Source: a virus | Taxonomy: Duplodnaviria > Caudoviricetes | Virus record (IMG/VR): IMGVR_UViG_3300025909_000005 | Direction: 5' to 3' (one strand) | Length of the DNA stretch: 64,000 nucleotides | Shown here: positions 458-54,992 of the stretch, piece by piece | How positions within the stretch are numbered: position 1 is the stretch's first letter | How the letters are laid out: every line of letters starts with the position of its first letter | Notes under the pieces: model-generated | Databases searched by the model: none | Told to the model about the DNA's origin: nothing | What the model saw: the letters and a program-made list of their open reading frames with translations, nothing else | Translations under genes and position numbers: made by a program

Positions 458-699
458 TGGCCTACTCAACCCCTGGCGTCTCCATCTACTGCACCATCTA
501 CGCGACGATCAACGATCGCGTAGAGGAGTTCAAGAACAAGAAGGGCGAGATCGAGGCGCGCACCATCGAAGGTGAAAAGGTCTGCGAGATGCTGAACGTC
601 GGCCTGACGCCAGGCGCCTTCCACTCCCTCTACACCCAGTTCAAGCGGCAGCACCCGACAGCTGTCGTCCGCTTTGGCAAGGAATACAAGCCATCATGA
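457..699 (+). CDS. hypothetical protein
   Basis: 80 aa ORF, TGATG overlap with previous gene. Confidence 0.7.
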   Translation: MAYSTPGVSIYCTIYATINDRVEEFKNKKGEIEARTIEGEKVCEMLNVGLTPGAFHSLYTQFKRQHPTAVVRFGKEYKPS

Positions 700-1487
700 G
701 CACCACCCGACAGTACCGCTACGCCGATCGTCTGATGACGATCGAGGGACTCAACCTCTCGTACGGCAGCAAGACGATCCTTCGCGACATCAACCTCGTG
801 ATCGACGACATCATCCGCCCAGAGATCACGCAGGGCCAATGCGTCGCGCTGCTCGGCCCCTCGGGCATCGGCAAGACGCAACTCTTTCGCTGCATCGCAG
901 GCCTACAGCGCCCCACGTCTGGCATCGTCCGGATCAATGGTGACAAGGACCACGTGAAGGCTGGTGAGATCGGTGTGGTTCAACAGAGCTACCCATTGCT
1001 CGCTCACCGCACGATCCTCAGCAACCTTCTGCTCGTGAACAAGGACAAGTCGAAGGTGATAGAGCTCCTCACTCGCTTCGGCCTCGAGGAGCACGCGGAC
1101 AAGTACCCCATTCAGCTGTCAGGTGGTCAGCGTCAACGCGTCGCGATCATCCAGCAGATGGTCTGCTCACGCCACTTCCTGCTGATGGACGAGCCGTTCT
1201 CGGGCCTCGACATCATCGCGAAGGACAAGGTCTGCAGCCTCATCAACGAGGTCAACCACGTCGACGAGCTGAACACGACCATCTTCACGACCCACGACCT
1301 CGAGTCCAGTGTACAGATCGCTGACCACATCTGGGTCCTTGGTCGCGAGAAGGACAAGCCTGGTGCCACCGTCATCAAGACGATCGACCTCATCGAGCGA
1401 GACCTCGCCTGGTCACCGGACATCACGAAGCACCCCAACTTCCAACCAACGGTGAACGAGCTCAAGGAGCTCTTCAAGACGCTATGA
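696..1487 (+). CDS. ABC transporter ATP-binding protein (NitT/TauT-like)
   Basis: Walker A GPSGIGKT, signature LSGGQRQRV, Walker B LLMDEPF, H-loop THD. Confidence 0.92.
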   Translation: MSTTRQYRYADRLMTIEGLNLSYGSKTILRDINLVIDDIIRPEITQGQCVALLGPSGIGKTQLFRCIAGLQRPTSGIVRINGDKDHVKAGEIGVVQQSYPLLAHRTILSNLLLVNKDKSKVIELLTRFGLEEHADKYPIQLSGGQRQRVAIIQQMVCSRHFLLMDEPFSGLDIIAKDKVCSLINEVNHVDELNTTIFTTHDLESSVQIADHIWVLGREKDKPGATVIKTIDLIERDLAWSPDITKHPNFQPTVNELKELFKTL

Positions 1488-5459: not shown

Positions 5460-6584
5460 ATGGCATCGAAAGTTCTGACCGTCTACATCGGTCGTTTCCA
5501 ACCACTTCACAACGGACATGTCCACGTTCTGACGAATGCGCTTCGCACGTCGGACCACACGCTGGTGCTCGTCGGCAGCTCGTTCCGTTCCCGCACGATC
5601 AAGAACCCCTTCACGTTCGACGAACGTAAGGAAGTGCTCATGGCCTGGCACGACGACTCGGAGCTCGACAAGAAGAGCCTGACCGTTCTGCCACTGCGTG
5701 ACCAGCCCTACTCAAACTCCAAGTGGATCGAGTCGGTGCAGAAGACGGTCCACAACTTCATGATCGAGAAGCATCTCGACCCCCGCACCACTGAAGTTCG
5801 CCTCACCGGTTCCGACCGTGACGAGTCGACCTGGTACCTGCAGGCCTTCCCGCAGTGGAAGCTGGCGCTCTGCGCTCCAGTTCCTGCCGGCCGCGACCTC
5901 TCAGCCACCAACCTCCGTCATGAGCTGTTCGGCGCCATGCTTGGCACGGCCATCAAGGACGACACCCCTCGCATCACGCAGTTCTTCATCGAGAAGTTCC
6001 GATTCGGCGAGGAGTTCGCGCTCCTCAAGGCCGAGTACGACTTCATCGAGAAGTACAAGAAGGCCTGGAAGGCAGCACCCTACGCACCCTACTTCCTGAC
6101 CGTCGACGGCGTCGTGATCCAATCCGGCCACGTGCTGGTCGTCCGCCGCGGCGCCCTCCCTGGCAAGGGCCTGCTCGCTCTGCCTGGTGGCTTCCTCGAT
6201 CAGAACGAGCGCCTCGCCGACGGCGTGGTTCGTGAACTCATCGAGGAAACGGGTCTGCGTCTGGCTGACGGCAAGAACGCCGAACGCATCACGAAGTCGA
6301 TGCTGCAGGGCGCCATCAAGGCGAAGGAAATCTTCGACGATCCGAATCGCTCGCTGCGTGGTCGCACCGTGACGACTGCCTACCTCATCCGCCTCGATGA
6401 CACCAAGCCGCTTCCGAAGGTGAAGGGCCAGTACGCACCGCTCCACGAGACCGGCGGCAAGCTCGTCGTCGAAACGGCTGACGCGTTCTGGATGCCGATC
6501 GCCGACGCGCTGCGCGACAGCTCGGTGTGGTTCGAGGACCACTACTACATTCTCGAGACGATGCTCGGCTTTGCGAAGGACTGA
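5460..6584 (+). CDS. nadM: bifunctional NMN adenylyltransferase / Nudix hydrolase (NadM-Nudix, NatV-like)
   Basis: GRFQPLHNGH (HxGH) motif; Nudix box PGGFLDQNERLADGVVRELIEETG. Confidence 0.93.
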   Translation: MASKVLTVYIGRFQPLHNGHVHVLTNALRTSDHTLVLVGSSFRSRTIKNPFTFDERKEVLMAWHDDSELDKKSLTVLPLRDQPYSNSKWIESVQKTVHNFMIEKHLDPRTTEVRLTGSDRDESTWYLQAFPQWKLALCAPVPAGRDLSATNLRHELFGAMLGTAIKDDTPRITQFFIEKFRFGEEFALLKAEYDFIEKYKKAWKAAPYAPYFLTVDGVVIQSGHVLVVRRGALPGKGLLALPGGFLDQNERLADGVVRELIEETGLRLADGKNAERITKSMLQGAIKAKEIFDDPNRSLRGRTVTTAYLIRLDDTKPLPKVKGQYAPLHETGGKLVVETADAFWMPIADALRDSSVWFEDHYYILETMLGFAKD

Positions 6585-7603: not shown

Positions 7604-8008
7604 ATGCGGTTCTACAAGGGCGCGCACGACTACCTTCACACGGTAGGACGCGAGGTCCGCGATACCGAAGAGCAGTGCCTGTACCTGGTGCCGGAGGCCT
7701 CAAATGAGTTCGACAGCAACGCGGTGATGCTGCACAACGGAAAGATCAAGCTCGGGTCTGTCGCAGCAGAAAGTGCTGCCAAGGTTCGTCGGATCATGGC
7801 CGATTGGAAAGCAGAATCGGCGAAGAAGGCAGCTGCGGCGGGCGCAAAGCATCCCGAGTGGGCAGATGATGTCATAGTTGTACGGATGGCACCAATTTCA
7901 AGTACAAAGCAAGACTTTGCCCACGTGGCAAGCTTGAAGGTCTACGGGAAGTATCGTATCAACGAGCGTCTCGCTAGGAAGTTTTCAGACAAACATCGGA
8001 AGGAATGA
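7604..8008 (+). CDS. HIRAN-domain protein (true start uncertain; frame is open far upstream)
   Basis: (IVG)MRFY..LYLVPEASNEFDSNAVMLHNGKIKLGSV resembles the HIRAN core. Confidence 0.6.
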   Translation: MRFYKGAHDYLHTVGREVRDTEEQCLYLVPEASNEFDSNAVMLHNGKIKLGSVAAESAAKVRRIMADWKAESAKKAAAAGAKHPEWADDVIVVRMAPISSTKQDFAHVASLKVYGKYRINERLARKFSDKHRKE

Positions 8009-8916
8009 TCATGGGTGGTTCACGTTGGTCAAATGACGACTATGTGTCGTACGCACGCACTACAAACTACGTCAACAAGTCGCGCGACGAAGTCTTCTCT
8101 CACAAGGTTGGTGAGAAGCTGGATCCGCGCAACGTCAAGGTCGGCAAGGGCGACCGCAAGGGCCTGCAGCTTCGCGAGTCCATCATCTCCGAGCAGAACC
8201 CGGACCCGACGCCGATCATCTTCGGTCTCGACGTCACGGGCTCCATGGGTGCGGTCGCCGAGCAGATCGCGAAGACCGAGCTGCCGAAGCTGATGACGCA
8301 GGTGCACGAGACAGGTGTCGTCTCCGACCCGCACGTCATGTTCATGGGCATCGACGACGTCTTCGCTCAAGGCCACGGCGCCCTGCAGGTCTCGTACTTC
8401 GAGCCTGACCTGAAGATCGTCGAGCAGCTGCGCCAGATGTGGCTCGTCGGCAACGGCGGCGGCAACGGCTCAGAGTCGTACGACCTCGCCTGGTACTTCG
8501 CTGGCCACTACACGTACCTCGAGAACTTCGAGAAGACGGGCAAGCCTGGCTTCTTGTTCACGTTCGGCGACGAACCGGCTCCGTACCAGACGGTGTCCAA
8601 GTCCGACCTCCAGACCATCTTCGGTCCGGGCGAGTACGAGAACACCCCGCCGGAATCGAGCCTGCGCTCCGCTCAGGCGAAGTTCCAGGTCTTCCACATC
8701 ATCGTGGAACGCGGTCGCGCCGACCGTGCAACGCGTGACAGCTGGACGAAGATGCTCGGCAACAATGCCATTTTCCTGCGTGACCCGCAGTACCTGACGG
8801 AAGTCGTCATCGCGACCATGGCAATCGCCGGTGGCCGTGACATCAACGAGGTCATCTCCGAGTCGCGTGTTCCCGAGGAACTGCGCTACGCCTTCAGCAA
8901 TTCGCTGAAGGGCTGA
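8005..8916 (+). CDS. vWA-domain protein
   Basis: MIDAS-like FGLDVTGSMG, later FTFGDE. Confidence 0.8.
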   Translation: MIMGGSRWSNDDYVSYARTTNYVNKSRDEVFSHKVGEKLDPRNVKVGKGDRKGLQLRESIISEQNPDPTPIIFGLDVTGSMGAVAEQIAKTELPKLMTQVHETGVVSDPHVMFMGIDDVFAQGHGALQVSYFEPDLKIVEQLRQMWLVGNGGGNGSESYDLAWYFAGHYTYLENFEKTGKPGFLFTFGDEPAPYQTVSKSDLQTIFGPGEYENTPPESSLRSAQAKFQVFHIIVERGRADRATRDSWTKMLGNNAIFLRDPQYLTEVVIATMAIAGGRDINEVISESRVPEELRYAFSNSLKG

Positions 8917-8921
8917 TGTAC

Positions 8922-8959
8922 GTGGGTCCTACTCTGTGATACAATGGAGTAGGACCCAC
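8922..8959 (+). promoter_or_regulatory. extended -10 promoter (TGTGATACAAT) in the loop of a perfect 13-bp inverted repeat
   Basis: GTGGGTCCTACTC / GAGTAGGACCCAC. Confidence 0.65.
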
Positions 8960-8971
8960 AATGGAGCAAGC

Positions 8972-10279
8972 ATGGCAGGATCACGAATCGCACCAGTACT
9001 CGCAGTGATTGGAGCTGGTTACGGTGACGAAGGCAAGGGCCTCTTCACCGACTACCTTGCCCGCAAGCACTCGAGATTCCAAGGCACGAAGGTTCCTCTC
9101 GTCATGAGAGGAAACGGTGGTGCACAAGCTGGCCACACTGTCGTCGATGGCACGAGGCGTCACGTCTTTGGCCACATCGGCTCAGGCACGATGGCTGGTG
9201 CTCGTACCTACCTCGCTGAGAACTTCATCGTCAACCCCATGGCCTTCGCTCCTGAACTGGAGAAGGTGAAGGCCCTTGGCATGGACCCGACCGTCTATGC
9301 CCACTCCAACTGCCGTGTCACAACGATCTTCGACATGGCGCTGAATTCCCTGGCCGAGCTCTTCCGAGGTCGCGCCCTTCACGGCTCATGCGGCTACGGC
9401 ATCAACGAGACCGTGACTCGCAACGAGGCGGGCTACTACCTCACGATGGCTGACATCCGTGCAGGCACCGCAGTTCTCGCAACCAAGCTCGAGGACATCC
9501 TTCGCGAGTACGTACCGACCCGGCTCTATGCCATCGGCTACCAGGAATGGGACCGCGACTCGGCCACCCCGCAAGTCAGAGCGCAGGCGGACGTCTACCT
9601 CAAGACCGTCATGGTGCAACAGGACGATCGTGCGGCCCACTGCAGCGCCCTCGCATCGAGGATGCAGAAGGACGTTCACTCGATCCACCTCTACGACCCG
9701 AAGTCGTTCACGTGGTCAGGCGAGCCGATCATCTACGAAGGTGCACAAGGCCTGCTGCTCGACGAGTACCACGGTACGTTCCCGCACGTGACCCGCTCCG
9801 TGACAGGCGTCGCCTCCGCTGTTCGTGCTGCCGCTGAAGCTGGACGCACTCAAGTTCAGCCGTACTACATCACGCGCTGCTACACGACCCGCCACGGTGC
9901 GGGTCCCCTGTACAAGGAAGGCGAGATCATCACCGATGGCGTCCGCTCGCTTCCTGATGAAACGAACATGCCGAACCAGCACCAGGGCACGCTGCGCTTC
10001 GCACCGCTGAATCTCGGCCACCTTCGGAACGCAATCGAGCGAGACATGGAACGTGCACGTCACGTCGGCCAGGTCTTCAACATCGAGGTCCTTCAGCCGA
10101 AGCTTGTCGTCACCCACCTCGACCAGCTCGGCCGCAAGGTGCAGTTTGCTGGATGGAGCTACCTTGTCGAGAGTGAAGCTGCTGCGAAAGCAATCGGCAA
10201 CTTCCTCGAGGTGTCCGTCTCGCACGTTTCCTACGGACCTGAAGCAAAGGATGTACGAGAGTTCACCTCTGAGCTATAA
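8972..10279 (+). CDS. purA: adenylosuccinate synthetase-like protein (divergent PurA family)
   Basis: GAGYGDEGKG P-loop, GAQAGHT, EGAQGLLLD, FPHVTRS, TRHGAGP. Confidence 0.85.
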   Translation: MAGSRIAPVLAVIGAGYGDEGKGLFTDYLARKHSRFQGTKVPLVMRGNGGAQAGHTVVDGTRRHVFGHIGSGTMAGARTYLAENFIVNPMAFAPELEKVKALGMDPTVYAHSNCRVTTIFDMALNSLAELFRGRALHGSCGYGINETVTRNEAGYYLTMADIRAGTAVLATKLEDILREYVPTRLYAIGYQEWDRDSATPQVRAQADVYLKTVMVQQDDRAAHCSALASRMQKDVHSIHLYDPKSFTWSGEPIIYEGAQGLLLDEYHGTFPHVTRSVTGVASAVRAAAEAGRTQVQPYYITRCYTTRHGAGPLYKEGEIITDGVRSLPDETNMPNQHQGTLRFAPLNLGHLRNAIERDMERARHVGQVFNIEVLQPKLVVTHLDQLGRKVQFAGWSYLVESEAAAKAIGNFLEVSVSHVSYGPEAKDVREFTSEL

Positions 10280-10338: not shown

Positions 10339-11811
10339 ATGTCTGAAAAACTCGTTCCCTACACCCCGAAGCGCCTCACGTACAACCCGCTGATGCGCAC
10401 GGACAGCTACAAGTTCTCGCACGCCTTCTCGTACCCGAGCAACGCCACTGGCATGTTCTCGTACATCGAGGCCCGCACCGGCGGCCAGGACATCATCGTC
10501 CCTTTCGGCCTGCAGATCTGGCTGAACGAACACCTCTCCATTCCCATCACCGCAGAGAACATCGACGAGGCCGAGCTCTTCGCAGCTGCCCACGGTGAAC
10601 CCTTCAGCCGCGCGGCCTGGGAGAAGGTCCTCAACAAGTATCACGGCTACATGCCCGTGACCATCCGCGCCGTTCCCGAAGGCACGCCGGTTCCGAGCGG
10701 CAACGCCCTCGTGACCATCCAGTGCGAGGACGAAGAGCTCGTCGGCGAAGTCAACAGGATTCTCGTCTTCTGGATCGCCTCGTACCTCGAGACGCAGATG
10801 CTGCGCGCCTACTGGTACCCGACCACTATCGCCACCCTCGACCGTGCGACGAAGCTGCAGATCAAGCGCTTCTACGAAATCGCCGGTGCCGACCTCAACT
10901 TCCTGCCCTTCTCGCTGCACGACTTCGGCGGCCGCGGCGTTTCGTCCGGCGAGACCGCTGCCATCGGCGGTGCCGCCCACCTGCCGTCCTTCATGGGCTC
11001 GGACACGGTCGAAGGCGTTCGCTACGCCAACTTCTACTACGACGAGGCCATGTCGGCCTTCTCCGTCCGTGCGACGGAGCACTCGGTCGCCTGCTCGTTC
11101 GGCCTGTCGGATGAAGACGAGATCGCGTACATCGCCCACCAGCTGAAGGTCTTCGAAGGCAATGGCAACATCATCTCGATGGTCGGCGACTCGAAGAGCA
11201 TCAAGCGCTTCGCAAAGCACCTGTGCACGACCTTCCGTGACCAGATCATGGACCTCCATGAGCGCCTCGGCATGAAGATCGTCTGCCGCCCGGACTCCGG
11301 CGATCCGCTCGAGATCATTCCGATGCTGCTGAAGATGTTCGCTGACGCGTTCCCGACCACGAAGACCAGCGCCGGCTACATCAAGCTCTACCCCGGCATC
11401 GGCATCCTGCAGGGCGACGGCGTCGATCGCATGACGATCCTCACCATCCTCGGCAACATCATGGCCATGAACTTCTCGCCGGACAACATCGTCTTCGGTT
11501 CCGGTGGCGGCCTGCTGCAGAAGGTCAACCGCGACACGTTCAAGTTCGCGATGAAGGCCTCTGCGATCAAGGTCGACGGCAAGTGGAAGGGCATCGTCAA
11601 GGACCCGGAAACCGACCCCGGCAAGAAGTCGAAGGAAGGCATCCTGACCCTCGCGACGAACGGCCTCGGTGACTACCTCACGGTGCGCCTCGACAACTCC
11701 GAGAACCCGTACCCGCGCGGCTATCACGATGCCATGGTCACGGTCTACGACAAGGGCCAGTTCTACAACCATACGACGCTGGCTGAAGTCCGCGCCCGCT
11801 GCGCGGTCTAA
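10339..11811 (+). CDS. nadV: nicotinamide phosphoribosyltransferase (NAMPT/NadV)
   Basis: TDSYKFSH, LHDFGGRG, ATEHS, RPDSGDP, ILQGDG, GSGGGLLQKVNRDT, KDPETDPGKKSK. Confidence 0.93.
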   Translation: MSEKLVPYTPKRLTYNPLMRTDSYKFSHAFSYPSNATGMFSYIEARTGGQDIIVPFGLQIWLNEHLSIPITAENIDEAELFAAAHGEPFSRAAWEKVLNKYHGYMPVTIRAVPEGTPVPSGNALVTIQCEDEELVGEVNRILVFWIASYLETQMLRAYWYPTTIATLDRATKLQIKRFYEIAGADLNFLPFSLHDFGGRGVSSGETAAIGGAAHLPSFMGSDTVEGVRYANFYYDEAMSAFSVRATEHSVACSFGLSDEDEIAYIAHQLKVFEGNGNIISMVGDSKSIKRFAKHLCTTFRDQIMDLHERLGMKIVCRPDSGDPLEIIPMLLKMFADAFPTTKTSAGYIKLYPGIGILQGDGVDRMTILTILGNIMAMNFSPDNIVFGSGGGLLQKVNRDTFKFAMKASAIKVDGKWKGIVKDPETDPGKKSKEGILTLATNGLGDYLTVRLDNSENPYPRGYHDAMVTVYDKGQFYNHTTLAEVRARCAV

Positions 11812-14968: not shown

Positions 14969-15613
14969 ATGCCAAACGCAGTTGTAAAGAGCTACGCCAA
15001 GAAGACTGGAAAGTCGCCTGAGCACATCGAAGGATGGTGGAAGGAGGCCGAGAAGGAAGCCAAGAAGAAGTTCCCAAAGAAGGGCCCTCACTACTGGGCG
15101 TACGTGAACGGCATCGTGAAGCGCCGTGGTGGCATCAAGGAGGTCATCGGCTTCCGTGACTTCGTTGACCTGCTCTCAGAAGAGGATGGCGGTGAGAAGG
15201 AGTCAGCGCTCTCCAAGATGTCCAAGGAACACGGTCCTGTCCTGGACAGGATCGAGAAGATCAAGGACCTTGGGCGCACCTTCGACAAGGCTCTCAAGGC
15301 TGACGGAGATGAGAAGGCGAAGGGCAACTACGCGCACTGGCTGAAGACGACCGACAAGTACCGAGTCGCCTACTTCACCGACACCGATCTCGACATTGAA
15401 ACCGTCCTCGTCTTCCGCGGCCACAAGTGCTTCGGCCTGGCATCGAAGAACGACAGCGACGCAATCATCGACTTCAAGTTCGTGCCAATGGAACGCAGCG
15501 ACTGGCAGGCGATCGAGGACTTCAGCTTGGACAACCTTGACTCCTCGGCTACAATCACTGATGAGAACCTCGACCACTATGTTGAGATGATTCTCCAGGC
15601 CACTCATAAATAA
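14969..15613 (+). CDS. hypothetical late protein
   Basis: RBS TAAGGA; basic N-terminal domain. Confidence 0.75.
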   Translation: MPNAVVKSYAKKTGKSPEHIEGWWKEAEKEAKKKFPKKGPHYWAYVNGIVKRRGGIKEVIGFRDFVDLLSEEDGGEKESALSKMSKEHGPVLDRIEKIKDLGRTFDKALKADGDEKAKGNYAHWLKTTDKYRVAYFTDTDLDIETVLVFRGHKCFGLASKNDSDAIIDFKFVPMERSDWQAIEDFSLDNLDSSATITDENLDHYVEMILQATHK

Positions 15614-15650
15614 ACCAGAGCACAGGTTGAGGCCTGTGCTATAATAGAAA

Positions 15651-16000
15651 CATACTGCAGCAATGCAGTTGTATTGTCGTAATTCGGCATGACTTGAAGG
15701 ATTTGAGACGCGGGTTCGATTCCCGCCGGCTCCACCACAAATCATCTTAGCAAGAACCTTACGCCAACGTTGTGGCAAGGAAAGCAGCAAGGGTGATTTG
15801 TCATGGGGCCGACCAGGCTATCGATCAGGTTACGGAGATGATTGACGCGACACGTCGTAGTGACGTTAAAAACTCGTCTAGTAAACGCAAACGACTCCAA
15901 CTACGCGATCGCCGCTTAATAACCGGCCCGCGCGCGGCATAAGCCACCGTGTAAAAGAATGAGCTAGGACGGACCCGAGGAGCAATCTTTGGGTCCGTCT
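15651..16000 (+). ncRNA. ssrA: two-piece (circularly permuted) tmRNA: acceptor piece ~15651-15737, intervening hairpin 15738-15804, coding piece from 15805; tag (A)ANDSNYAIAA
   Basis: T-arm and CGGCTCC-A-CCA lie upstream of GGGGCCG (7-bp acceptor with G3.U70); tag ORF GCA AAC GAC...GCC GCT TAA at 15887-15919; promoter TATAAT 15640; 3' hairpin 15968-15999. Confidence 0.92.
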
Positions 16001-16068
16001 GCCTTTCCAGGTCGATGGACCTGACTTTCGCTTCCATCGTAAATACGTTCAACTTCAAAGGAGTTGAG

Positions 16069-16666: not shown

Positions 16667-16738
16667 GCCTCGGTAGCTCAGTGGTAGAGCGGATGCCTCT
16701 AAAACGTCGGGTCGTGGGTTCGATTCCCACCCGGGGCA
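16667..16738 (+). tRNA. amber suppressor tRNA (anticodon CTA), no encoded CCA
   Basis: GCCTCGG/CCGGGGC acceptor, loop CTCTAAA, canonical D and T arms. Confidence 0.85.
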
Positions 16739-16753
16739 CAGATAAGGATGACC

Positions 16754-16960
16754 ATGGGACGTAGACTTTCCCTGCATGAAATGAATGCCATCAGGCATGA
16801 GGACGATGTTCGCAACTCGCAGATCAAGCGAGGCGAATGGAAGCCGAAGACAAACAACAACTATCACTGCGTGTGTGGTTGTGGTGCGTTCGCATGCGTG
16901 TTCGTGAGCTCAATTCCGCAGACGGTCCTGCCCATGGACGAACGATCAAATGTCTCTTAG
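16754..16960 (+). CDS. small Cys-containing protein between the two suppressor tRNAs; its TAG stop lies inside the second tRNA
   Basis: RBS TAAGG; HCVCGCG motif. Confidence 0.55.
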   Translation: MGRRLSLHEMNAIRHEDDVRNSQIKRGEWKPKTNNNYHCVCGCGAFACVFVSSIPQTVLPMDERSNVS

Positions 16961-17026
16961 CTCAATGGGTAGAGCGACGGTCTCTAAAACCGTATGTTCC
17001 GGGTTCGAGCCCCGGAGGGACGGCCA
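16951..17026 (+). tRNA. amber suppressor tRNA (anticodon CTA), G73, CCA encoded
   Basis: perfect ACGGT/ACCGT anticodon stem, loop CTCTAAA, TGTCTCT/AGGGACG acceptor. Confidence 0.9.
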
Positions 17027-17029
17027 AAC

Positions 17030-17275
17030 ATGTCTGCATTGAAGCGTATCGTTGCTGAGGCTGACGCCGACCCGAAAGGGTACGAGAAGGTGAATGACTT
17101 CTGGCAACAGTTCTTCGACTCGGTAAAGTTCGACAAGGTGAATGACACCGCCATGGTCGAATTTCGCGTCGAGCTGAACATGATCGACGAGGTGCGTGAG
17201 CTGCAGGAAGACCTGGAAAATTTCGAGCAGCTCGAGGCTCAGTTTCGACATCAAATCTCTGGAGACCAGAAGTGA
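17030..17275 (+). CDS. hypothetical protein, ADADPxGY N-terminal family
   Basis: MSALKRIVAEADADPKGYEK. Confidence 0.65.
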   Translation: MSALKRIVAEADADPKGYEKVNDFWQQFFDSVKFDKVNDTAMVEFRVELNMIDEVRELQEDLENFEQLEAQFRHQISGDQK

Positions 17276-17451
17276 AGCGCGTTACCATCACCGATGTCAA
17301 GCTACCTGACGCAGCGATCGAGGTGTACAAGATGTACGCCAAGCTGCTGAAGGACCAGGGGAAGTCTGTTCCCGAGCACGAAGAACTGCTGGAGTACGGC
17401 GAGTACTTCAACGTTCGTCTGAACGCAGACGGAACGTGGGAGCTGGTGTAA
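17272..17451 (+). CDS. small hypothetical protein (59 aa)
   Basis: GTGA overlap, RBS GGAG, ends TAA. Confidence 0.55.
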   Translation: MKRVTITDVKLPDAAIEVYKMYAKLLKDQGKSVPEHEELLEYGEYFNVRLNADGTWELV

Positions 17452-17492
17452 TCTAGTGTGTACTTCCCGGGGACGGGTAGTATAATGGCTTC

Positions 17493-17750
17493 ATGAACAA
17501 ACACATCCTCAAGCTGCTCGAAGAGATCAACAAGCGCAACACCACGCTGCGTGACATCTTCAAGATGAACGTCGAGGTCTACGACCTGACGAAGCCCCTG
17601 ACGAACGAGGAGATCGACAAGCTCCTCGTCCACTGCGAGGTCGAGCTCTCTCCCGAGGTCCTCACCTGCGACGGCGAACGCCGTGTTCCGAAGGGTCGTG
17701 TCGCCATGCTGACGAAGGCGCAGGAAGCCCTGCGTGCCGCGAAGCAATGA
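17493..17750 (+). CDS. hypothetical protein
   Basis: promoter TGTACT-N16-TATAAT directly upstream. Confidence 0.7.
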   Translation: MNKHILKLLEEINKRNTTLRDIFKMNVEVYDLTKPLTNEEIDKLLVHCEVELSPEVLTCDGERRVPKGRVAMLTKAQEALRAAKQ

Positions 17751-18070
17751 GCATCCTCGGCCGACTCGCTGCAGCCGCTGACGCGGACCCGGAAGGGTAC
17801 AAGAGGGCGACGCAGCCGAAGTTCGACTTCTGGAAGGCGGGCCGCGGGAAGACGAGCATTCGACTGCTTGAGGAGCTTGCTGGCGACTTCAACATTGACA
17901 CGCACATGTTTCAATTGGAACGATCACGCGTGATCACTGAGACGGCCCGAGGTATTCAACAGGACATGCTCCGCTACCTTGAGAATGATCTTGCGATCAC
18001 CAATGCTCTGATGCCGCGCCAGCGCGCGATCTTGAGCATTGACACCTCTGGTTCGATGGGGCAGCTGTGA
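17747..18070 (+). CDS. hypothetical protein, ADADPxGY family
   Basis: MSILGRLAAAADADPEGYKR. Confidence 0.65.
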   Translation: MSILGRLAAAADADPEGYKRATQPKFDFWKAGRGKTSIRLLEELAGDFNIDTHMFQLERSRVITETARGIQQDMLRYLENDLAITNALMPRQRAILSIDTSGSMGQL

Positions 18071-18381
18071 GCACACTCTCAAGGATCATCGCAGCTGCTG
18101 ATGCAGACCCTGAGGGGTACGAGTCCGCAACGACGCCGCTCTACAACCGGCTTCTTAAGGCGTTAGGCAAAGTGGAGATTCGTTCGATTTTAACGCCTCA
18201 GCTTTCAGATCAGCACATCGGTCGTGGCTGGCGTCAACTGGCAGATGTACTGCTGATTGCGCCACCGCGAACAGGCAAGTCTGCGATCCGCAACGAGCTG
18301 ATCGTGCTGCGCAGCAAAGAGCGACCTGCGTCTCCGAATGTTCATTTCGACCCACAGTGGTACAATAAATACATCGACTAA
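18067..18381 (+). CDS. hypothetical protein, ADADPxGY family
   Basis: MSTLSRIIAAADADPEGYES. Confidence 0.6.
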   Translation: MSTLSRIIAAADADPEGYESATTPLYNRLLKALGKVEIRSILTPQLSDQHIGRGWRQLADVLLIAPPRTGKSAIRNELIVLRSKERPASPNVHFDPQWYNKYID

Positions 18382-18533
18382 CAAGTTGTAGTTCCGATCA
18401 ACAACCGACGAGGCACCCGAAATGTAAGTCCGACCCTGAGTTTCATCACACAGGCTAACGATTTTGAGTTTCGAGTTTCATGGGAACCTTCTCCATGGTA
18501 AAAAGGTTCCCCAACTTCCCAAGGAAGACCATC

Positions 18534-18890
18534 ATGCAATCGTAGATCCGCGAAGACGCCAAGACCTATCTGTACACCATCTCTCGCCGCGACATCCCTC
18601 TCGCGCAACAAGCTGTGCAAGCCGGCCACGCCGCCCTTGAACACGCTTACCTCTACGGCCGTCCGGCCGACCATCACCCCTCCTACATTCACCTGACGAT
18701 TCGAGACAAGGAACGGCTCGAGAAGCAACGGCGTGCGCTCCAAGAAGCTGGCATTCCGACGGCCGAGTTCCACGAACCGTACAAGGACTGGGGTCTCACC
18801 GCCATTTCCTGCCTCCTCACCGAGGAACAACGTCACCACCTGAAGGGGCTCCAGCTGTGGCGCCTCCCCACCCAAGGAGAAGAAGCATGA
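18534..18890 (+). CDS. peptidyl-tRNA hydrolase type 2-like protein with in-frame TAG at codon 4 (readthrough required)
   Basis: RBS AAGGA 8 nt before ATG CAA TCG TAG; frame continues YLYTISRRDIPLAQQAVQAGHAALE...FHEP...LTAI. Confidence 0.75.
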
Positions 18891-19291
18891 ACTACACCAT
18901 CATTGTCCATGAAGAAGCCCGCCATGGTTACGACCGCTGCGGCGACGGCTGGAACGAACCTGGCACCTTCGAGGTGTTCTGCACCTCTGATCAAACCGAG
19001 TTCGTGAAGAAGTGGGCTGAGTTCGACCTGAAGCAGCCATCCGGTTGCTGGGACGACTTCCAGATCCTGTACGATGGCGTGCCGACGGAATTCGATGACG
19101 CGCACTACGAGCTGGAGCGACTCAAGGACATCGAGTACGCCGCGCTGAAGAAGCAGGCCGAGGCAGACAAGCTGGAGGCGAAGCGTCGCGCCGAGGAAGA
19201 AGCCAGGGTGAAGGCGGCTCGTGCCGTCGAAGCTCAACGACAAGCAGACCTCGCGCAGCTCGAGGCCCTCAAAAAGAAGCTGGGAGTCTAA
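18887..19291 (+). CDS. hypothetical protein with coiled-coil C-terminus
   Basis: RBS AAGGAG. Confidence 0.7.
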   Translation: MNYTIIVHEEARHGYDRCGDGWNEPGTFEVFCTSDQTEFVKKWAEFDLKQPSGCWDDFQILYDGVPTEFDDAHYELERLKDIEYAALKKQAEADKLEAKRRAEEEARVKAARAVEAQRQADLAQLEALKKKLGV

Positions 19292-19292
19292 C

Positions 19293-19817
19293 ATGAAGAT
19301 TACGTACAAGGAAAATCCGCTGGCAACCGTCATCGAGCTCGATGACCATGAGAAGGAGGTCATGCGCCTGAAGCTCAAGCTGGAGATCTACGAGGACCGT
19401 GCCTTCGCCGCCCACTGGGCCCTCGCAAACATTGGCAACGAGCTGCGTGGTCAGATTCGAACGAAGGACATGGCCATCGAGCAGGCCATGAAGGAACTTG
19501 ACCCTGACTACTTGCTTGCTGAGGATGGTGAGGGTATCGAGAAGCGGACTGACGATCTACTGACGTGGTACCTTCAGGAACTCCAGTCATGGCACGACGG
19601 TGACTGCACGGCCTTCCCCGCGTCTTGCTGCAAGTGCCATGCCGAGGACATGCTTGGTCTCAATACGATCAAGGGAATTGGCAAGCACCAAGGGTACGCA
19701 CTGAGCCAGTACTTCGCCCGTGGTCGCACGCTCAATGAGCTCATCGAGGACGTGTCCCTGAAGCAGGAGCTTCGTGACTGGCTCAGTGAACATCGCGAGC
19801 GGCTATCTAGCCACTAA
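19293..19817 (+). CDS. hypothetical protein with DCTAFPASCCKC motif
   Basis: RBS GGGAG. Confidence 0.7.
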   Translation: MKITYKENPLATVIELDDHEKEVMRLKLKLEIYEDRAFAAHWALANIGNELRGQIRTKDMAIEQAMKELDPDYLLAEDGEGIEKRTDDLLTWYLQELQSWHDGDCTAFPASCCKCHAEDMLGLNTIKGIGKHQGYALSQYFARGRTLNELIEDVSLKQELRDWLSEHRERLSSH

Positions 19818-19851
19818 TGCTATTACCCGCTCGCTCACTAAGGAAAGTAAC

Positions 19852-20421
19852 ATGACGTAGGTTTTCTCCCCCAAGCTGCAGGCTCTTCGTGAGAAGATGG
19901 CCGCCTGCAACCAGACCCAAGGCCAGACCATTCTCCAGCACGGCGAGTCCGTGGCCGAGTGGTACAAGGACCTGATTGGTGCACGCACACGTGAGTGGCG
20001 CCTGCCTGACTGGTTCGATCCCGCCCTCTTCGAGCTCTGCCCAGATGTGGGGACGATGGAGCGCTACCACATCTACCATGATTGTGGTAAGCCGTACTGC
20101 CGTACGGTTGACGAAGAAGGTCGTCAACACTTCCCTGACCATGCCCGTATCAGCGCCTCCATCTGGCGCGTGACCGGTGGCGACGCGGCTGTTGCTCGTC
20201 TCATCGAACACGACATGGACATGCACACCCTCAAGCCGGCAGATGCCGACACCTACCTGCACCTGGACATTGCTCCAGCTCTGCTTCTCACCGCCCTTGC
20301 TGAACTGCACTCCAACGCCGACATGTTCGGCGGGATCGAGAGCACGTCCTTCAAGATCAAGTTCAAGAACCTCAACAAGCTCGGCAACCGCCTCATCAAC
20401 CGCATCAAGGAGATCGCATAA
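19852..20421 (+). CDS. HD-domain phosphohydrolase with in-frame TAG at codon 3
   Basis: RBS TAAGGA 7 nt before ATG ACG TAG; in frame with ATG 19897; HG..V, YHDCGKP, HFPDHA, HDMDMH. Confidence 0.75.
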
Positions 20422-45699: not shown

Positions 45700-46295
45700 T
45701 CCATTCTCCCTTCTTTCGTGAGGAGGGTGCCCGCGTTTCCGATCAGGTCGAAGTCTGCCCTGGTGTTCGGATGGGTGCCCACTCCTACATGAACGGTGGC
45801 CGCATCAACAGCGGCTCGTACATCGGTCGGTACTGTTCGATCGGCTACAGCGTCACGATCGGCGTGGGTCACCACGACAAGGACCTCATGTCCACGTCTC
45901 CTTGGTTCAACTCGGAGAAAGGTCCGACCGTTAGGCACGTAGGTGATGACCAGTCCGTTCGAGTCGTGATCAAGAACGACGTGTGGATTGGCGATGGCGT
46001 CATCATCCTGAATGGAGTCACCATCGGAAATGGTGCCGTGATCGGCGCAGGCGCGGTCGTCACACACGACATTCCTGACTACGCGATTGCCATCGGCGTG
46101 CCCGCGAAGATCTACGAGATGCGGTTCGACCCACCAACCATCGAGCGGCTGCTCAAGCTGAAGTGGTGGGACATCGACCCGTCTGCCCTGAAGAGCCGCC
46201 CTCTTCACTTCACCGATGAAGACATCGCGTACTGGGAACTCCAGTCGATGGACAACCCAGCTCTTCGACCAAAGTTCGCTCTCGAAAAGAGCTGA
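45696..46295 (+). CDS. hexapeptide-repeat O-acetyltransferase (CatB/Vat-related)
   Basis: [46 protein letters not shown]. Confidence 0.85.
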
Positions 46296-46329
46296 GAACA
46301 AGTTACAATTGCTCTTTACGGAGAGCACT

Positions 46330-47001
46330 GTGGCACGCGATCACCTTTTCACTGGCGAAACCTGGCTCAAGGAGCAGAAGCTCATTCAGCCAGAAGAGCT
46401 GCGTTCGACCCCGATCAAGTACGTCTTCTTGGACATTGATGGCGTGCTGAACTCTTCGGGCTCATGCCTCGTGAAGACTGGTCCGATTCGTGACTCGATT
46501 CAAATGGAGAGCTTTCAGCACCTCCACATGGTCTGGGCTGATGAGGACTTCCAGCTCGACTACCGGAAGCAGGACACGATCGACACCGCGGATCCGACTG
46601 CCGTTGCGTTGATGACGCGGCTGCTCGTCAAGGGCCACTGCAAGCTGGTCATGAGCTCCTCGCACCGCTACTCCTTCCGAGATCACCCACGTCTACCGTG
46701 CGGTTATAACTCAAAGGAGCACCGCGTCTGGCTGGCCCTGTACCTCCAGGCCATGGGCCTGGGCTTCTTTGGTGAGCTCGACATCACACCTGACCTTCAC
46801 TGCGAGCGCGGCCATGAGGTCGACATGTACATTGAAAATGTGCTCCAAGACGGTGATAAATACGTGATCATCGATGATGGTGCAGATTTCTTCTCGCACC
46901 AGAACCTGGTGAAGACAGATCCCACGGTCGGTTTCACGCACACGAACTACCTCGAGTGCTGCAAGATCCTGGGTATCGACGAGTCCTCACTCATCTACTA
47001 G
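46330..47001 (+). CDS. HAD-superfamily (Swiss-Army-knife RNA-repair-like) phosphatase; ends in TAG
   Basis: FLDIDGVLNS, SSSHR, YVIIDD. Confidence 0.75.
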   Translation: MARDHLFTGETWLKEQKLIQPEELRSTPIKYVFLDIDGVLNSSGSCLVKTGPIRDSIQMESFQHLHMVWADEDFQLDYRKQDTIDTADPTAVALMTRLLVKGHCKLVMSSSHRYSFRDHPRLPCGYNSKEHRVWLALYLQAMGLGFFGELDITPDLHCERGHEVDMYIENVLQDGDKYVIIDDGADFFSHQNLVKTDPTVGFTHTNYLECCKILGIDESSLIY

Positions 47002-52677: not shown

Positions 52678-53676
52678 ATGAAGAACATCCTGAAGACCTT
52701 TGGCCCAAACGAGAGTGGCCGTGACTTTGTCATCGGCGACCTCCATGGCGCGTACGACTGCTTTGAGAACCTCCTGCGTGGCATCAACTTCGATGAGAAG
52801 CGCGATCGCATGTTTTCCGTCGGCGACCTCGTCGACCGTGGTCCGAAGCCGCTCGAGTGCCTCGGTCTTCTGCGCAAGAACTGGTTCCATGCTGTGCTCG
52901 CCAATCACGAGCAGATGATGTACGAGGGCTTCAACGGCGGTTACATGGGCGCCTACTGGTTCATGAACGGCGGTGGGTGGGGCATGTCTGCTTGGAACGT
53001 GGCTGAGGCCATCAAGAAGCGCGACTCAGGCCTGCTCGACCCGCAGAACATGCCCATCATCACGGACGATGACTTCGAACTGCTCGACCTACTGCCGCTC
53101 GTTGAAGAGCTGCCGTACCTGATCACGATCAACCACAAGAGTGGGAAGAAGTTCCACATCATCCATGCTGAGCTGCCACCCGGTCATCAGATCACCGATG
53201 ACACTCTGTCCAGCCCTGGCAAGGTCGAAGAGTTGGCCACGATTCAAACGCAGAACGGCGGCGACACGATGTGCTGGGGTCGCTACCTCTTCATGCCGTT
53301 CTACGACCGTGACCTGAACAACCGCAACAAGGTGCTGCGCATCATCAAGCGCGGCCACGCCTTGGGCATGTTCAATGACAAGCTGTCGCACATCATCTCT
53401 GGTCACACGATTCTGAAGCGCCCGCTGACGATTCTCGGTCAAACGAACATCGACACTGAAGCATACGGCTCGTACCCGGAGAAGCGCGGGTCGCAGTACG
53501 GCGTTGCTGGCTACGAGCGGCCTGCTCCTCAGTGGAAGGGTTTGACGTGCGTCAACTTGGATGACTGGACGTTTGTCAACGCGACACCCACCCAGTTTCG
53601 CGAAGTCGAGCCGATGGTTGTAAATAGACAGGATCTTCTGGATTTATCGGAAGATGAGGAGCCCAAAGATGAGTGA
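52678..53676 (+). CDS. metallophosphoesterase (PphA/NinI-like Ser/Thr phosphatase)
   Basis: GDLHG, GDLVDRG, ANHE, HAE, SGHT. Confidence 0.87.
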   Translation: MKNILKTFGPNESGRDFVIGDLHGAYDCFENLLRGINFDEKRDRMFSVGDLVDRGPKPLECLGLLRKNWFHAVLANHEQMMYEGFNGGYMGAYWFMNGGGWGMSAWNVAEAIKKRDSGLLDPQNMPIITDDDFELLDLLPLVEELPYLITINHKSGKKFHIIHAELPPGHQITDDTLSSPGKVEELATIQTQNGGDTMCWGRYLFMPFYDRDLNNRNKVLRIIKRGHALGMFNDKLSHIISGHTILKRPLTILGQTNIDTEAYGSYPEKRGSQYGVAGYERPAPQWKGLTCVNLDDWTFVNATPTQFREVEPMVVNRQDLLDLSEDEEPKDE

Positions 53677-54794: not shown

Positions 54795-54992
54795 ATGAAT
54801 CACGCAGAGCTGCAAGCCATCGTCAACGAGAACATGGACAACGCGTTGGACAACGCGCCCGAGTTCATTAAGACGGCGTCAAACCTCGCCATCGCCGAGG
54901 ACATGCTGGAGTACTGTGCAGACTTCGAGTTCCTCGACCTATCGCCTGACGACCTGGTCCCCTTCATCGAAACATGGTGGAACAAGGTATGA
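54795..54992 (+). CDS. acidic hypothetical protein
   Basis: near-leaderless after TATAAT. Confidence 0.6.
   Translation: MNHAELQAIVNENMDNALDNAPEFIKTASNLAIAEDMLEYCADFEFLDLSPDDLVPFIETWWNKV

What the first reader, a model, noticed from the sequence alone, without database searches (positions are those of the whole stretch)
16667..20421. Candidate amber-gated module: phage suppressor tRNAs unlock two tRNA-recycling/repair genes
Seen in sequence: two CUA-anticodon tRNAs (16667, 16951) lie 1.5-3 kb upstream of two genes whose best RBS and ATG are followed by an in-frame TAG at codon 4 (PTH2-like, 18534) and codon 3 (HD protein, 19852). I found no other in-frame TAG in the remaining ORFs I checked, and TAG still terminates several genes, so this is not genome-wide recoding. 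Established: PTH2 recycles peptidyl-tRNA, HD domains of this type heal RNA ends, and very short ORFs promote peptidyl-tRNA drop-off. Inference: expression of these two enzymes is switched on only when the phage suppressor tRNA is made and charged, acting as a timer or a sensor of tRNA or release-factor status. I know of no description of such a gene-specific N-terminal amber gate.
Basis: partly seen in the sequence, partly recalled or inferred. Interest (0 to 1): 0.95.

Follow-up and report, generated by a model that had tools for sequence, protein, structure and literature searches.

The report
Stop-codon-gated tRNA-repair genes with own suppressor tRNAs
A giant soil phage that otherwise uses the normal genetic code keeps a UAG stop a few codons into two tRNA-maintenance genes and carries two UAG-reading tRNAs next to them, which gives the "orphan" suppressor tRNAs of many jumbo phages a natural target.

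Summary
There are two CUA-anticodon tRNAs (16667-16739, 16951-17026). A PTH2-fold gene opens ATG-CAA-TCG-TAG at 18534, and an HD gene opens ATG-ACG-TAG at 19852.

It is not an error, a pseudogene or genome-wide recoding:
- 29 related viral contigs and six cultured jumbo phages (ME3, BF, GAP32, RsoM2USA, Arash, XacN1) keep an early in-frame stop in one or both genes.
- The stop matches the neighbouring tRNA: TAG goes with CUA. In two independent lineages TGA goes with UCA.
- The base after the gate stop is a purine in all 28 parsed cases; after ordinary TAG terminators it is a purine in 48%.
- Three complete relatives (about 350 kb each) have standard-code coding density of 0.91. No other conserved gene in them showed this layout.

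Both folds need residues that lie upstream of any canonical start codon. The best reading is therefore gene-specific programmed readthrough by the phage's own suppressor tRNAs. Nothing here is experimental. The purpose of the gate (timer, dose-matching, feedback or release-factor sensing), the amino acid inserted and the enzyme activities remain open.

I found no published description. The XacN1 paper states that targets of its suppressor tRNAs could not be found. This scan has noted the same motif before on other DNA (for example e1-933198, e1-5344394, e1-5356139).

The parts
15573..16010 (+). Two-piece (permuted) tmRNA with tag peptide ANDSNYAIAA. It opens the conserved order tmRNA, suppressor tRNAs, gene A, gene B.
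   Evidence: ARAGORN places it at 15645-16010. Rfam beta_tmRNA scores 91.9 bits and tmRNA_permuted 102 bits. It holds the same position in G001, G002, G003 and G006.
16667..16739 (+). Suppressor tRNA 1. Anticodon CUA, anticodon loop CU-CUA-AA, discriminator A73, no encoded CCA.
   Evidence: ARAGORN cloverleaf. Rfam tRNA 62.4 bits.
16951..17026 (+). Suppressor tRNA 2. Anticodon CUA, first pair U1-G72, discriminator G73, CCA encoded. Its nearest ordinary tRNA is a phage tRNA-Trp (78%).
17030..18381 (+). Five small ORFs between the tRNAs and gene A. Three are paralogues sharing the motif A(A/E)ADADP(E/K)GY. The first starts 4 nt after the tRNA's CCA. Function unknown, no Pfam match.
   Evidence: ORF list and sequence. 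Pfam finds nothing.
18521..18545 (+). Gate of gene A: SD AAGGAAG, ATG 18534, CAA, TCG, TAG 18543-18545, followed by A (ATC).
   Evidence: Sequence. The same layout occurs in relatives. The base after the stop is always a purine.
18534..18890 (+). Gene A: PTH2-fold protein, 118 aa if TAG is read through. Strand beta-1 (residues 11-18) and the start of helix 1 lie upstream of the first canonical start (GTG 18615).
   Evidence: AlphaFold model, pLDDT 89. The top 14 PDB matches are all PTH2 or Bit1-type, TM 0.61-0.73. Pfam PF01981 is sub-threshold in 18 of 34 homologues.
18887..19817 (+). Two ORFs of unknown function between genes A and B (18887-19291 and 19293-19817). They are absent in ME3, BF, GAP32 and Arash, where A and B abut.
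19840..19860 (+). Gate of gene B: SD AAGGA, ATG 19852, ACG, TAG 19858-19860, followed by G (GTT).
   Evidence: Sequence. ATG-ACG-TAG-GTT is identical in six diverged relatives.
19852..20421 (+). Gene B: HD-domain protein, 189 aa if TAG is read through. Helix 7-18 spans Met16 (ATG 19897), so the fold needs residues upstream of that ATG.
   Evidence: Model pLDDT 96.4. The best fold matches are the HD-bearing C-terminal part of class II tRNA nucleotidyltransferases. The phrog_14850 match starts at residue 13.

Best explanation
Genes A and B are made in full only by programmed readthrough of one early in-frame stop codon, and the phage's own suppressor tRNAs, encoded 1.5-3 kb upstream beside a tmRNA, do the reading. 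Gene A is a PTH2-fold, peptidyl-tRNA-hydrolase-like protein. Gene B is an HD phosphohydrolase of the kind attached to CCA-adding enzymes. The ribosome starts at the SD-led ATG and reaches UAG at codon 3 or 4. There it either terminates, or drops a di- or tripeptidyl-tRNA and yields nothing useful, or it accepts the CUA tRNA and goes on. Output of both tRNA-maintenance enzymes is thus tied to the ratio of active suppressor tRNA to release factor. The rest of the genome uses the standard code.

Shown by comparison: the stop is conserved, it is specific to these genes, and it co-varies with the tRNA anticodon.

Inferred: the tRNAs are expressed and charged; the early position makes the OFF state cheap and readthrough efficient; and the gate couples A and B to the phage tRNA programme (as a timer or by dose-matching), or else closes a feedback loop or a release-factor-sensing loop.
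For: (1) The gate is present and conserved. Of 24 non-redundant related loci, 21 read M-x(0-6)-TAG and two read TGA in gene A. About 17 of the 29 fetched loci (before removing near-duplicates) carry an early in-frame stop in gene B. Cultured phages do the same: ME3 MT#IH, BF MTH#ND, GAP32 MAQ#NE, RsoM2USA ML#IS and MKS#IS, Arash ML#NK, and the XacN1 HD-PTH2 fusion MK#TI.
(2) Stop and anticodon co-vary. A CUA tRNA is found for every TAG-gated locus with enough flank (21 loci), and for the cultured phages. The two TGA-gated loci (L015, L024) carry UCA tRNAs instead. In L024 both genes and both tRNAs have switched. On the gene A tree the two TGA lineages are separate, so two changes are forced, and L024 is sister to the TAG/CUA locus L021 at 96/94 support.
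(3) The layout is specific. Among 541 conserved ORFs of the loci it occurs 34 times behind TAG, every time in gene A or B. It occurs 4 times behind TGA (two are L024's A and B) and 2 times behind TAA. The same holds genome-wide in three complete genomes.
(4) The genomes are not recoded. Coding density is 0.91 under the standard code with no gain if TAG is read as sense. No internal stops appear in conserved genes. TAG and TGA end ordinary genes.
(5) The proteins need the upstream residues. Strand beta-1 of the PTH2 fold and helix 7-18 of the HD fold lie before any canonical start. In BF, GAP32 and L020 the TAG of gene B sits inside the domain, after the invariant His30-Gly31, so restarting downstream cannot give a whole enzyme.
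(6) The context looks selected. The base after the gate stop is A (22) or G (6), never a pyrimidine. After 52 ordinary TAG terminators it is T 16, C 11, G 13, A 12. The tRNAs carry the loop CU-CUA-AA.
(7) A and B are functionally linked. They are fused as PTH2-HD in bacterial proteins P0219 and P0236, and as HD-PTH2 in XacN1.
Against: There is no experimental evidence of any kind. Expression, processing and charging of the tRNAs, the amino acid inserted and the readthrough peptide have all not been seen.

L024's genome (G003) ends 115 of 226 conserved ORFs in TGA. It shows no enrichment of backup stops although it carries two UGA suppressors. So either suppression is weak or tightly timed, or its cost is tolerated; this is unexplained.

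Gene A may lack the catalytic lysine of PTH2, so 'peptidyl-tRNA hydrolase' is not secure.

Three near-identical loci (L026-L028, one lineage) have no stop in gene A, and ME3 and Arash have none in gene B. Neither gate is therefore obligatory.

If A and B are the only targets, the benefit of routing them through a suppressor tRNA is not self-evident.
Confidence: 0.8

Rival explanations
1. Feedback or sensor version of the same gate. A and B act on the suppressor tRNA itself (deacylating it or trimming its 3' end), or they relieve termination stress. The in-frame stop would then make a homeostat that holds suppression, or the release-factor to tRNA balance, within limits, in the way prfB senses RF2 through its in-frame UGA.
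For: Both enzymes are of kinds that work on tRNA 3' ends. The module sits beside a tmRNA. GAP32 and BF carry a separate, annotated canonical PTH2 as well (GAP32's note cites PF01981), so gene A is an extra, divergent paralogue that could have a special substrate. G003 tolerates UGA suppressors although half its genes end in TGA, which fits tightly limited suppression.
Against: Nothing shows the substrate of A or B. A loop with no other output leaves unexplained why the suppressor exists at all. ME3 and Arash gate only gene A.
Confidence: 0.2
2. The ATG-xx-TAG is a regulatory mini-ORF of the uORF or 'bar minigene' type. The real proteins start downstream by reinitiation or at a non-canonical start codon, independently of the suppressor tRNAs.
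For: The layout of SD, ATG, one to three codons and a stop is that of lambda bar-type minigenes (my own knowledge). Gene B has an in-frame ATG 15 codons downstream, where most database gene calls begin. The codon after the stop is often ATT, ATC or GTT.
Against: This reading predicts no link between stop type and tRNA anticodon, yet they switch together twice. The codon after the stop is as often AAC, AAT or ACN, which are not near-cognate starts. Gene A has no canonical start before codon 28, and in some relatives none at all. Conserved fold elements lie before those starts. Internal TAGs in gene B of BF, GAP32 and L020 cannot be bypassed by reinitiation. The SD is spaced for the ATG.
Confidence: 0.08
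3. The phage uses an alternative code (TAG as sense, 'code 15') in all or part of its genome, as crAss-like and Lak phages do, and these are just two of many recoded genes.
For: Phage-encoded suppressor tRNAs are the hallmark of recoded phages (bioRxiv 10.1101/2021.08.26.457843). Public gene callers translated many homologues with TAG=Q.
Against: Coding density is 0.86-0.92 under the standard code and gains nothing specific from reading TAG as sense. No conserved gene in three complete genomes or in the window has an internal stop bridged by homology. TAG terminates 5-10% of conserved ORFs. The gate layout is confined to two genes.
Confidence: 0.03
4. The TAGs are sequencing or assembly errors, or A and B are decaying pseudogenes.
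For: None beyond the bare presence of an in-frame stop.
Against: The same stops occur in an independent 99%-identical contig (L001), in 28 further loci at 55-83% protein identity, and in finished genomes of cultured phages. The rest of each frame is intact and conserved, with confident folds.
Confidence: 0.01

Closest known systems
Stop-codon-recoded phages with phage-encoded suppressor tRNAs (TAG as Gln 'code 15', TGA as Trp 'code 4'; crAss-like, Lak, Jade 'code-change module'; bioRxiv 10.1101/2021.08.26.457843, PMC9523058)
   Same: A phage-encoded suppressor tRNA allows translation of phage genes that carry in-frame stops. Recoding has been proposed there to act as a switch for a gene set.
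   Different: Here the genome is standard-code, with density 0.91 and TAG and TGA used as terminators. Only one or two genes are affected. The stop is single and sits at codon 2-7. The gated genes are tRNA-maintenance enzymes next to the tRNAs, not late structural or lysis genes.
prfB (release factor 2) autoregulation through an early in-frame UGA
   Same: A conserved early in-frame stop in a translation-factor gene makes its output depend on how well that stop is recognised.
   Different: prfB escapes by a +1 frameshift and senses its own product. Here the frame is kept and a dedicated tRNA reads the stop. Whether A or B feeds back on decoding is unknown.
Lambda bar-type minigenes and peptidyl-tRNA drop-off (my own knowledge)
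   Same: SD, ATG, one to three codons and a stop. The link to peptidyl-tRNA hydrolase is thematic.
   Different: bar minigenes stand alone and act by sequestering tRNA. Here the mini-frame continues in frame into a conserved enzyme, and the stop matches a resident suppressor tRNA.
Engineered suppressor-tRNA feed-forward gates in E. coli (PMC7969014, PMC13276491)
   Same: Amber codons are placed in a target gene and a suppressor tRNA is supplied, so that expression needs both.
   Different: Those are synthetic. This would be a natural, widely conserved counterpart.
'Orphan' suppressor tRNAs of cultured jumbo phages (XacN1, PMC5852040; Atu_ph07, PMC6102473; the Sup-tRNAs annotated in GAP32 and BF)
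   Same: These are the same tRNAs in the same phage groups.
   Different: [quoted passage not shown] The targets proposed here lie at the 5' ends of genes that are unannotated or called short.

Membership tests
PTH2 peptidyl-tRNA hydrolase (PF01981) | PTH2 alpha/beta fold | tested here: met
   The model has pLDDT 89. The top 14 PDB matches are archaeal Pth2, human Bit1 and one uncharacterised protein (2gax, Atu0240), with probability 1.00 and TM 0.61-0.73.
PTH2 peptidyl-tRNA hydrolase (PF01981) | Score above Pfam's gathering threshold | tested here: not met
   12.8 bits against a cut-off of 23 for the window's protein. The match is sub-threshold in 18 of 34 homologues, best E 0.0029.
PTH2 peptidyl-tRNA hydrolase (PF01981) | N-terminal catalytic lysine (GK..AQ..HA motif; that it is catalytic is recalled from memory) | tested here: inconclusive
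   BLAST and a weak hhalign alignment to the PTH2 domain of P0236 put Gln25 opposite Lys5, while AQAGHA is kept. The alignment has low confidence.
PTH2 peptidyl-tRNA hydrolase (PF01981) | Hydrolysis of peptidyl-tRNA | not testable with these tools
   Needs an enzyme assay.
HD phosphohydrolase superfamily (PF01966) | H...HD...D metal-binding residues | tested here: met
   His76-Asp77 are invariant, as are His93, His97, Asp121, Asp123 and His125 across 34 homologues.
HD phosphohydrolase superfamily (PF01966) | Score above Pfam's gathering threshold | tested here: not met
   18.5 bits against 22, E 0.0025.
HD domain of class II tRNA nucleotidyltransferases (CCA-adding or CC-adding enzymes) | Fold likeness to that domain | tested here: met
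   The best PDB matches are 3wfo-3wfs, 'tRNA processing enzyme', TM by query 0.59-0.67. The best Swiss-Prot match is residues 254-449 of the Aquifex CC-adding enzyme. The window's own PolyA_pol-type enzyme (54974-56095, 373 aa) shows no HD domain.
HD domain of class II tRNA nucleotidyltransferases (CCA-adding or CC-adding enzymes) | 2',3'-cyclic phosphodiesterase or phosphatase activity on tRNA ends | not testable with these tools
   Needs an enzyme assay.
Suppressor tRNA | Cloverleaf tRNA whose anticodon is complementary to a stop codon | tested here: met
   ARAGORN and Rfam. The anticodon loop is CU-CUA-AA. They are not initiator-like: there is no C1xA72 mismatch and no run of three G-C pairs in the anticodon stem.
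Suppressor tRNA | Expressed, aminoacylated and active at the stop | not testable with these tools
   The only indirect support is the co-variation with the gate stops.
Alternative-code (recoded) phage | Low coding density under the standard code that is restored by recoding, with in-frame stops in many genes | tested here: not met
prfB-type autoregulatory in-frame stop | Conserved early in-frame stop in a translation-related gene | tested here: met
prfB-type autoregulatory in-frame stop | The product controls decoding of its own stop | not testable with these tools
   Needs genetics or biochemistry.

The most novel reading that the evidence does not exclude
The module is a self-contained translational homeostat or sensor. 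The suppressor tRNAs compete with release factor at a stop placed where termination is intrinsically poor (a two- to three-residue nascent chain). The PTH2-like and HD enzymes made by readthrough then act back on the suppressor tRNA, or on the products of failed termination (dropped peptidyl-tRNA, damaged tRNA 3' ends). The phage would thereby measure and correct termination or tRNA stress in the infected cell. That would be a natural tRNA-based analogue of prfB autoregulation, working together with the adjacent tmRNA.
Probability: 0.2. Interest if true: 0.9.

Novelty: new variant of a known kind. Interest (0 to 1): 0.8.

Why it matters
Suppressor tRNAs are annotated in many cultured jumbo phages that use the standard code, and their purpose has been an acknowledged puzzle. 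The XacN1 authors looked for targets and found none (PMC5852040).

This finding names conserved targets. It explains why these genes are missing or truncated in GenBank annotations. It also suggests a natural form of the 'amber-codon plus suppressor tRNA' gate that synthetic biologists build by hand.

The idea can be tested at once in laboratory phage-host pairs of Salmonella, Cronobacter, Serratia, Acinetobacter and Ralstonia. If the gate proves to sense release-factor or tRNA status, it would be a new kind of translational control in viruses.

There is also a warning for databases. Gene callers that switch to code 15 on short contigs silently write Gln at these stops.

Tried and rejected
(1) 'TAG aligns with Gln in homologues.' My first alignments showed MKSQI and MQSQI in database proteins. 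A look-up showed that those proteins translate to the query only 'with_TAG=Q'. The Q is therefore an artefact of code-15 gene calling and says nothing about the amino acid inserted.

(2) tRNA identity. Pairwise comparison with 167 ordinary phage tRNAs gave no clear parent; the suppressors resemble each other most. Pairs usually combine one A73 and one G73 tRNA, which hints at two identities but proves nothing.

(3) Initiator-like tRNA starting at UAG. Rejected on cloverleaf features and SD spacing.

(4) RNA structure that stimulates readthrough. Folding 111 nt around each gate gave z-scores of 0.31 and 1.04, which are unremarkable.

(5) Megablast of the region against GenBank phages found no match. 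Relatives were reached only by protein search.

(6) My first HSP-spanning scan for internal stops was dominated by antisense and off-frame shadows. After filtering to the best-scoring frame, nothing remained.

(7) Backup stops. There is no enrichment after TGA in the UGA-suppressor genome. After TAG in CUA genomes there is at most a weak excess (11 of 39, against 30 of 245 after TAA), which is too few to lean on.

(8) Reads. Contigs from three other rhizosphere samples, and one 263-nt contig from an RNA library, lie over gene A's start (18400-18661). The output does not show every difference, and RNA libraries can hold DNA, so this is neither proof of the TAG in those samples nor of transcription.

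(9) The promoter and terminator scan gave nothing above chance.

(10) ARAGORN missed the CUA tRNA of L011 and L012, which has an odd T-loop. Rfam found it at 43.4 bits. L008 and L013 are short contigs in which no suppressor tRNA was found.

Full report
What is there. The window comes from a jumbo phage found in rhizosphere metagenomes. It has 57% G+C and almost all its genes lie on the + strand. It holds a tRNA array and RNA-repair genes. ARAGORN finds a tmRNA (15645-16010), two tRNAs with anticodon CUA (16667-16739, 16951-17026) and 26 ordinary tRNAs. Rfam confirms a two-piece tmRNA and scores both CUA tRNAs at about 62 bits against a gathering score of 29.

The sequence shows gene A as AAGGAAG-N6-ATG(18534) CAA TCG TAG(18543) ATC, open to 18890. 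The first ATG, GTG or TTG after the TAG is 24 codons downstream. Gene B reads AAGGA-N7-ATG(19852) ACG TAG(19858) GTT, open to 20421, and its next ATG is at 19897.

Not error, not decay. A search of IMG/VR with an alignment of gene A homologues returned 29 loci, many from contigs of 300-360 kb. I translated each locus in frame. Gene A begins M, then zero to six residues, then TAG, then the conserved KTYLYTISRRD in 21 of 24 non-redundant loci. Two loci (L015, L024) have TGA at that spot. One lineage (L026-L028) has no stop. Gene B shows M, one to three residues, then TAG in most loci, and TGA again in L024. L001 is an independent contig 99% identical to the window, and it has both TAGs.

Cultured phages show the same thing. 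ME3 reads MT#IH. Serratia BF reads MTH#ND. GAP32 reads MAQ#NE. RsoM2USA reads ML#IS in gene A and MKS#IS in gene B. Salmonella phage Arash reads ML#NK. In XacN1 the two proteins are fused (HD then PTH2) behind MK#TI. In BF and GAP32, gene B carries its TAG inside the domain (ELDTG#GDP), and in L020 it follows the invariant His-Gly (LQHGE#VYE). GenBank leaves gene A unannotated in many of these records, or calls short fragments.

The stop matches the tRNA. Every TAG-gated locus with enough flank has one or two CUA tRNAs, usually 0.2-3 kb upstream of gene A. In L011 and L012 the tRNA has an odd T-loop that ARAGORN misses and Rfam finds. In RsoM2USA it lies 12 kb away. In XacN1 two CUA tRNAs are reported in the terminal repeats. 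The two TGA-gated loci carry UCA tRNAs and no CUA tRNA. In L024's complete genome (G003), both genes have TGA and both tRNAs have UCA. On a maximum-likelihood tree of gene A the two TGA lineages are apart. L024 is sister to the TAG/CUA locus L021 (support 96/94), and L015 groups with the window. No bootstrap tree unites them. The stop and the anticodon therefore changed together at least twice. This is the strongest argument that these tRNAs read these stops.

Specific to two genes, in a standard-code genome. I searched the 29 loci and the window for conserved ORFs whose homology begins at least 8 residues before any canonical start, and which sit behind a stop with an in-frame ATG at most 8 codons upstream. 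This found 34 cases behind TAG, all of them gene A or gene B. It found 4 behind TGA (two being L024's A and B) and 2 behind TAA.

I then fetched three complete relatives: G001 (349,660 bp), G002 (358,444 bp) and G003 (342,591 bp). Each has exactly two suppressor tRNAs, next to a tmRNA. Coding density is 0.91 under the standard code and does not rise specifically when TAG is read as sense. After filtering for the true frame, no conserved gene has an internal stop bridged by homology. Both the homology-based scan and a pure pattern scan find the gate layout only at A and B. TAG ends 5-10% of conserved ORFs, and TGA ends 51% of them in the UGA-suppressor genome.

The proteins need the gated residues. 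The gene A model (pLDDT 89) has strand beta-1 at residues 11-18 and helix 1 from residue 23, and the first canonical start is at codon 28. The gene B model (pLDDT 96.4) has a helix at residues 7-18 that spans Met16. The PHROG match to gene B starts at residue 13.

Context. The base after the gate stop is A in 22 and G in 6 of 28 automatically parsed gates. After 52 ordinary TAG terminators in the same genomes it is T 16, C 11, G 13, A 12. A purine after UAG is the classical context for efficient amber suppression; I recall this from Bossi and from Miller and Albertini and did not check it here. The tRNAs have the loop CU-CUA-AA. No unusual RNA structure flanks the gates.

What the genes are. 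Gene A has no Pfam match at threshold, but its fold is PTH2: the top 14 PDB matches are archaeal Pth2, human Bit1 and one uncharacterised protein (2gax, Atu0240). A weak alignment puts Gln where PTH2 has its N-terminal lysine, so its activity is uncertain. GAP32 and BF also carry a separate gene annotated as peptidyl-tRNA hydrolase, for which GAP32's record cites Pfam PTH2.

Gene B has the HD residues. It best matches the HD-bearing C-terminal part of class II tRNA nucleotidyltransferases. The window's own PolyA_pol-type enzyme (54974-56095) has no HD domain.

A and B are fused in bacterial proteins P0219 and P0236, one of which a source names 'peptidyl-tRNA hydrolase', and in XacN1. They probably work together on tRNA 3' ends.

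How it most likely works. Translation starts at the SD-led ATG. At codon 3-4 the ribosome meets UAG, and only decoding by the phage tRNA gives the enzyme. An early stop makes the OFF product trivial. From what is known of minigenes (my own knowledge), it also places the competition where release is slow. I put 0.8 on suppressor-dependent readthrough as the way A and B are made.

The purpose is open. I lean towards coupling A and B to the phage tRNA programme, as a timer or by dose-matching to the level of suppression. I give about 0.2 to a true feedback or release-factor-sensing loop. The tolerance of UGA suppressors in a genome that ends half its genes in TGA, without backup stops, remains unexplained and argues for weak or brief suppression.

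A correction of my own. Database homologues that read MKSQI or MQSQI seemed to place Gln at the gate. They are translations 'with_TAG=Q'. The amino acid inserted is unknown.

Novelty. Full-text searches found phage recoding, engineered amber gates and papers that note orphan suppressor tRNAs. None describes early stop gates in PTH2-like or HD genes. The library is incomplete, so this is not proof of absence. This scan has reported the same motif on other genomes. I tested the shared claims independently here: conservation, co-variation, presence in cultured phages, and the two-gene version.

Noticed in passing
window 15573-16010: The phage encodes a two-piece (permuted) tmRNA of betaproteobacterial type, with tag ANDSNYAIAA. 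The order tmRNA, suppressor tRNAs, gene A, gene B is kept in G001, G002, G003 and G006.
   Followed up: partly
window 17030-17275, 17747-18070, 18067-18381: Three paralogous small ORFs share the N-terminal motif A(A/E)ADADP(E/K)GY. The first begins 4 nt after the CCA of suppressor tRNA 2. There is no Pfam match.
   Followed up: no
window 46216-47001, 52678-53676, 54974-56095: RNA-repair and tRNA genes lie downstream: a HAD domain of 'Swiss Army Knife' RNA repair proteins, a calcineurin-like phosphoesterase, and a PolyA_pol-type (CCA-adding family) enzyme of 373 aa without an HD domain.
   Followed up: partly
window 696-1487, 5460-6584, 8936-10279, 10339-11811: Auxiliary metabolism genes: an ABC ATPase, a cytidylyltransferase-like plus NUDIX fusion (NadR/NMNAT-like), an adenylosuccinate synthetase, and a NAMPT/NAPRTase. 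This is an NAD salvage set like that reported for other jumbo phages.
   Followed up: no
G003 (genome of L024), whole: This relative carries two UCA (UGA-reading) tRNAs yet ends 115 of 226 conserved ORFs in TGA. It has no excess of backup stops: 6% within 5 codons, against 10% in the TAG-gated genomes G001 and G002.
   Followed up: partly
L090 924-1274, L091 1589-1939 (database proteins P0039 and similar): Public gene calls for many gene A and B homologues were made with TAG=Q on short contigs. The protein databases therefore show Gln where the DNA has the gate stop, which hides the feature and mimics a sense codon.
   Followed up: yes
L012 9753-9824: A CUA tRNA with a non-canonical T-loop (GGGGUAGGCACCC in place of GGUUCGAAUCC). 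ARAGORN missed it and Rfam found it at 43.4 bits.
   Followed up: partly
L085 (Serratia phage BF) 6001-6884; L086 (GAP32) 8001-8890: GenBank annotation leaves gene A blank or shortened. It splits gene B into two to four small 'hypothetical proteins' around its internal TAG.
   Followed up: yes
L087 (XacN1) 8001-8840; proteins P0219 and P0236: The two gated proteins occur fused in both orders: HD-PTH2 in XacN1 ORF364, and PTH2-HD in 317-aa proteins, P0236 from a contig of about 1 Mb (presumably bacterial).
   Followed up: partly
window 18400-18661: A 263-nt contig from a rhizosphere metatranscriptome library lies over the start of gene A, with one substitution and one inserted base. This may be RNA or carried-over DNA.
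   Followed up: no
window 16667-16739 against 16951-17026: The two suppressor tRNAs differ in kind: A73 without encoded CCA, against U1-G72 with G73 and encoded CCA. Most relatives with two suppressors also pair an A73 tRNA with a G73 tRNA, which suggests two different amino-acid identities.
   Followed up: partly
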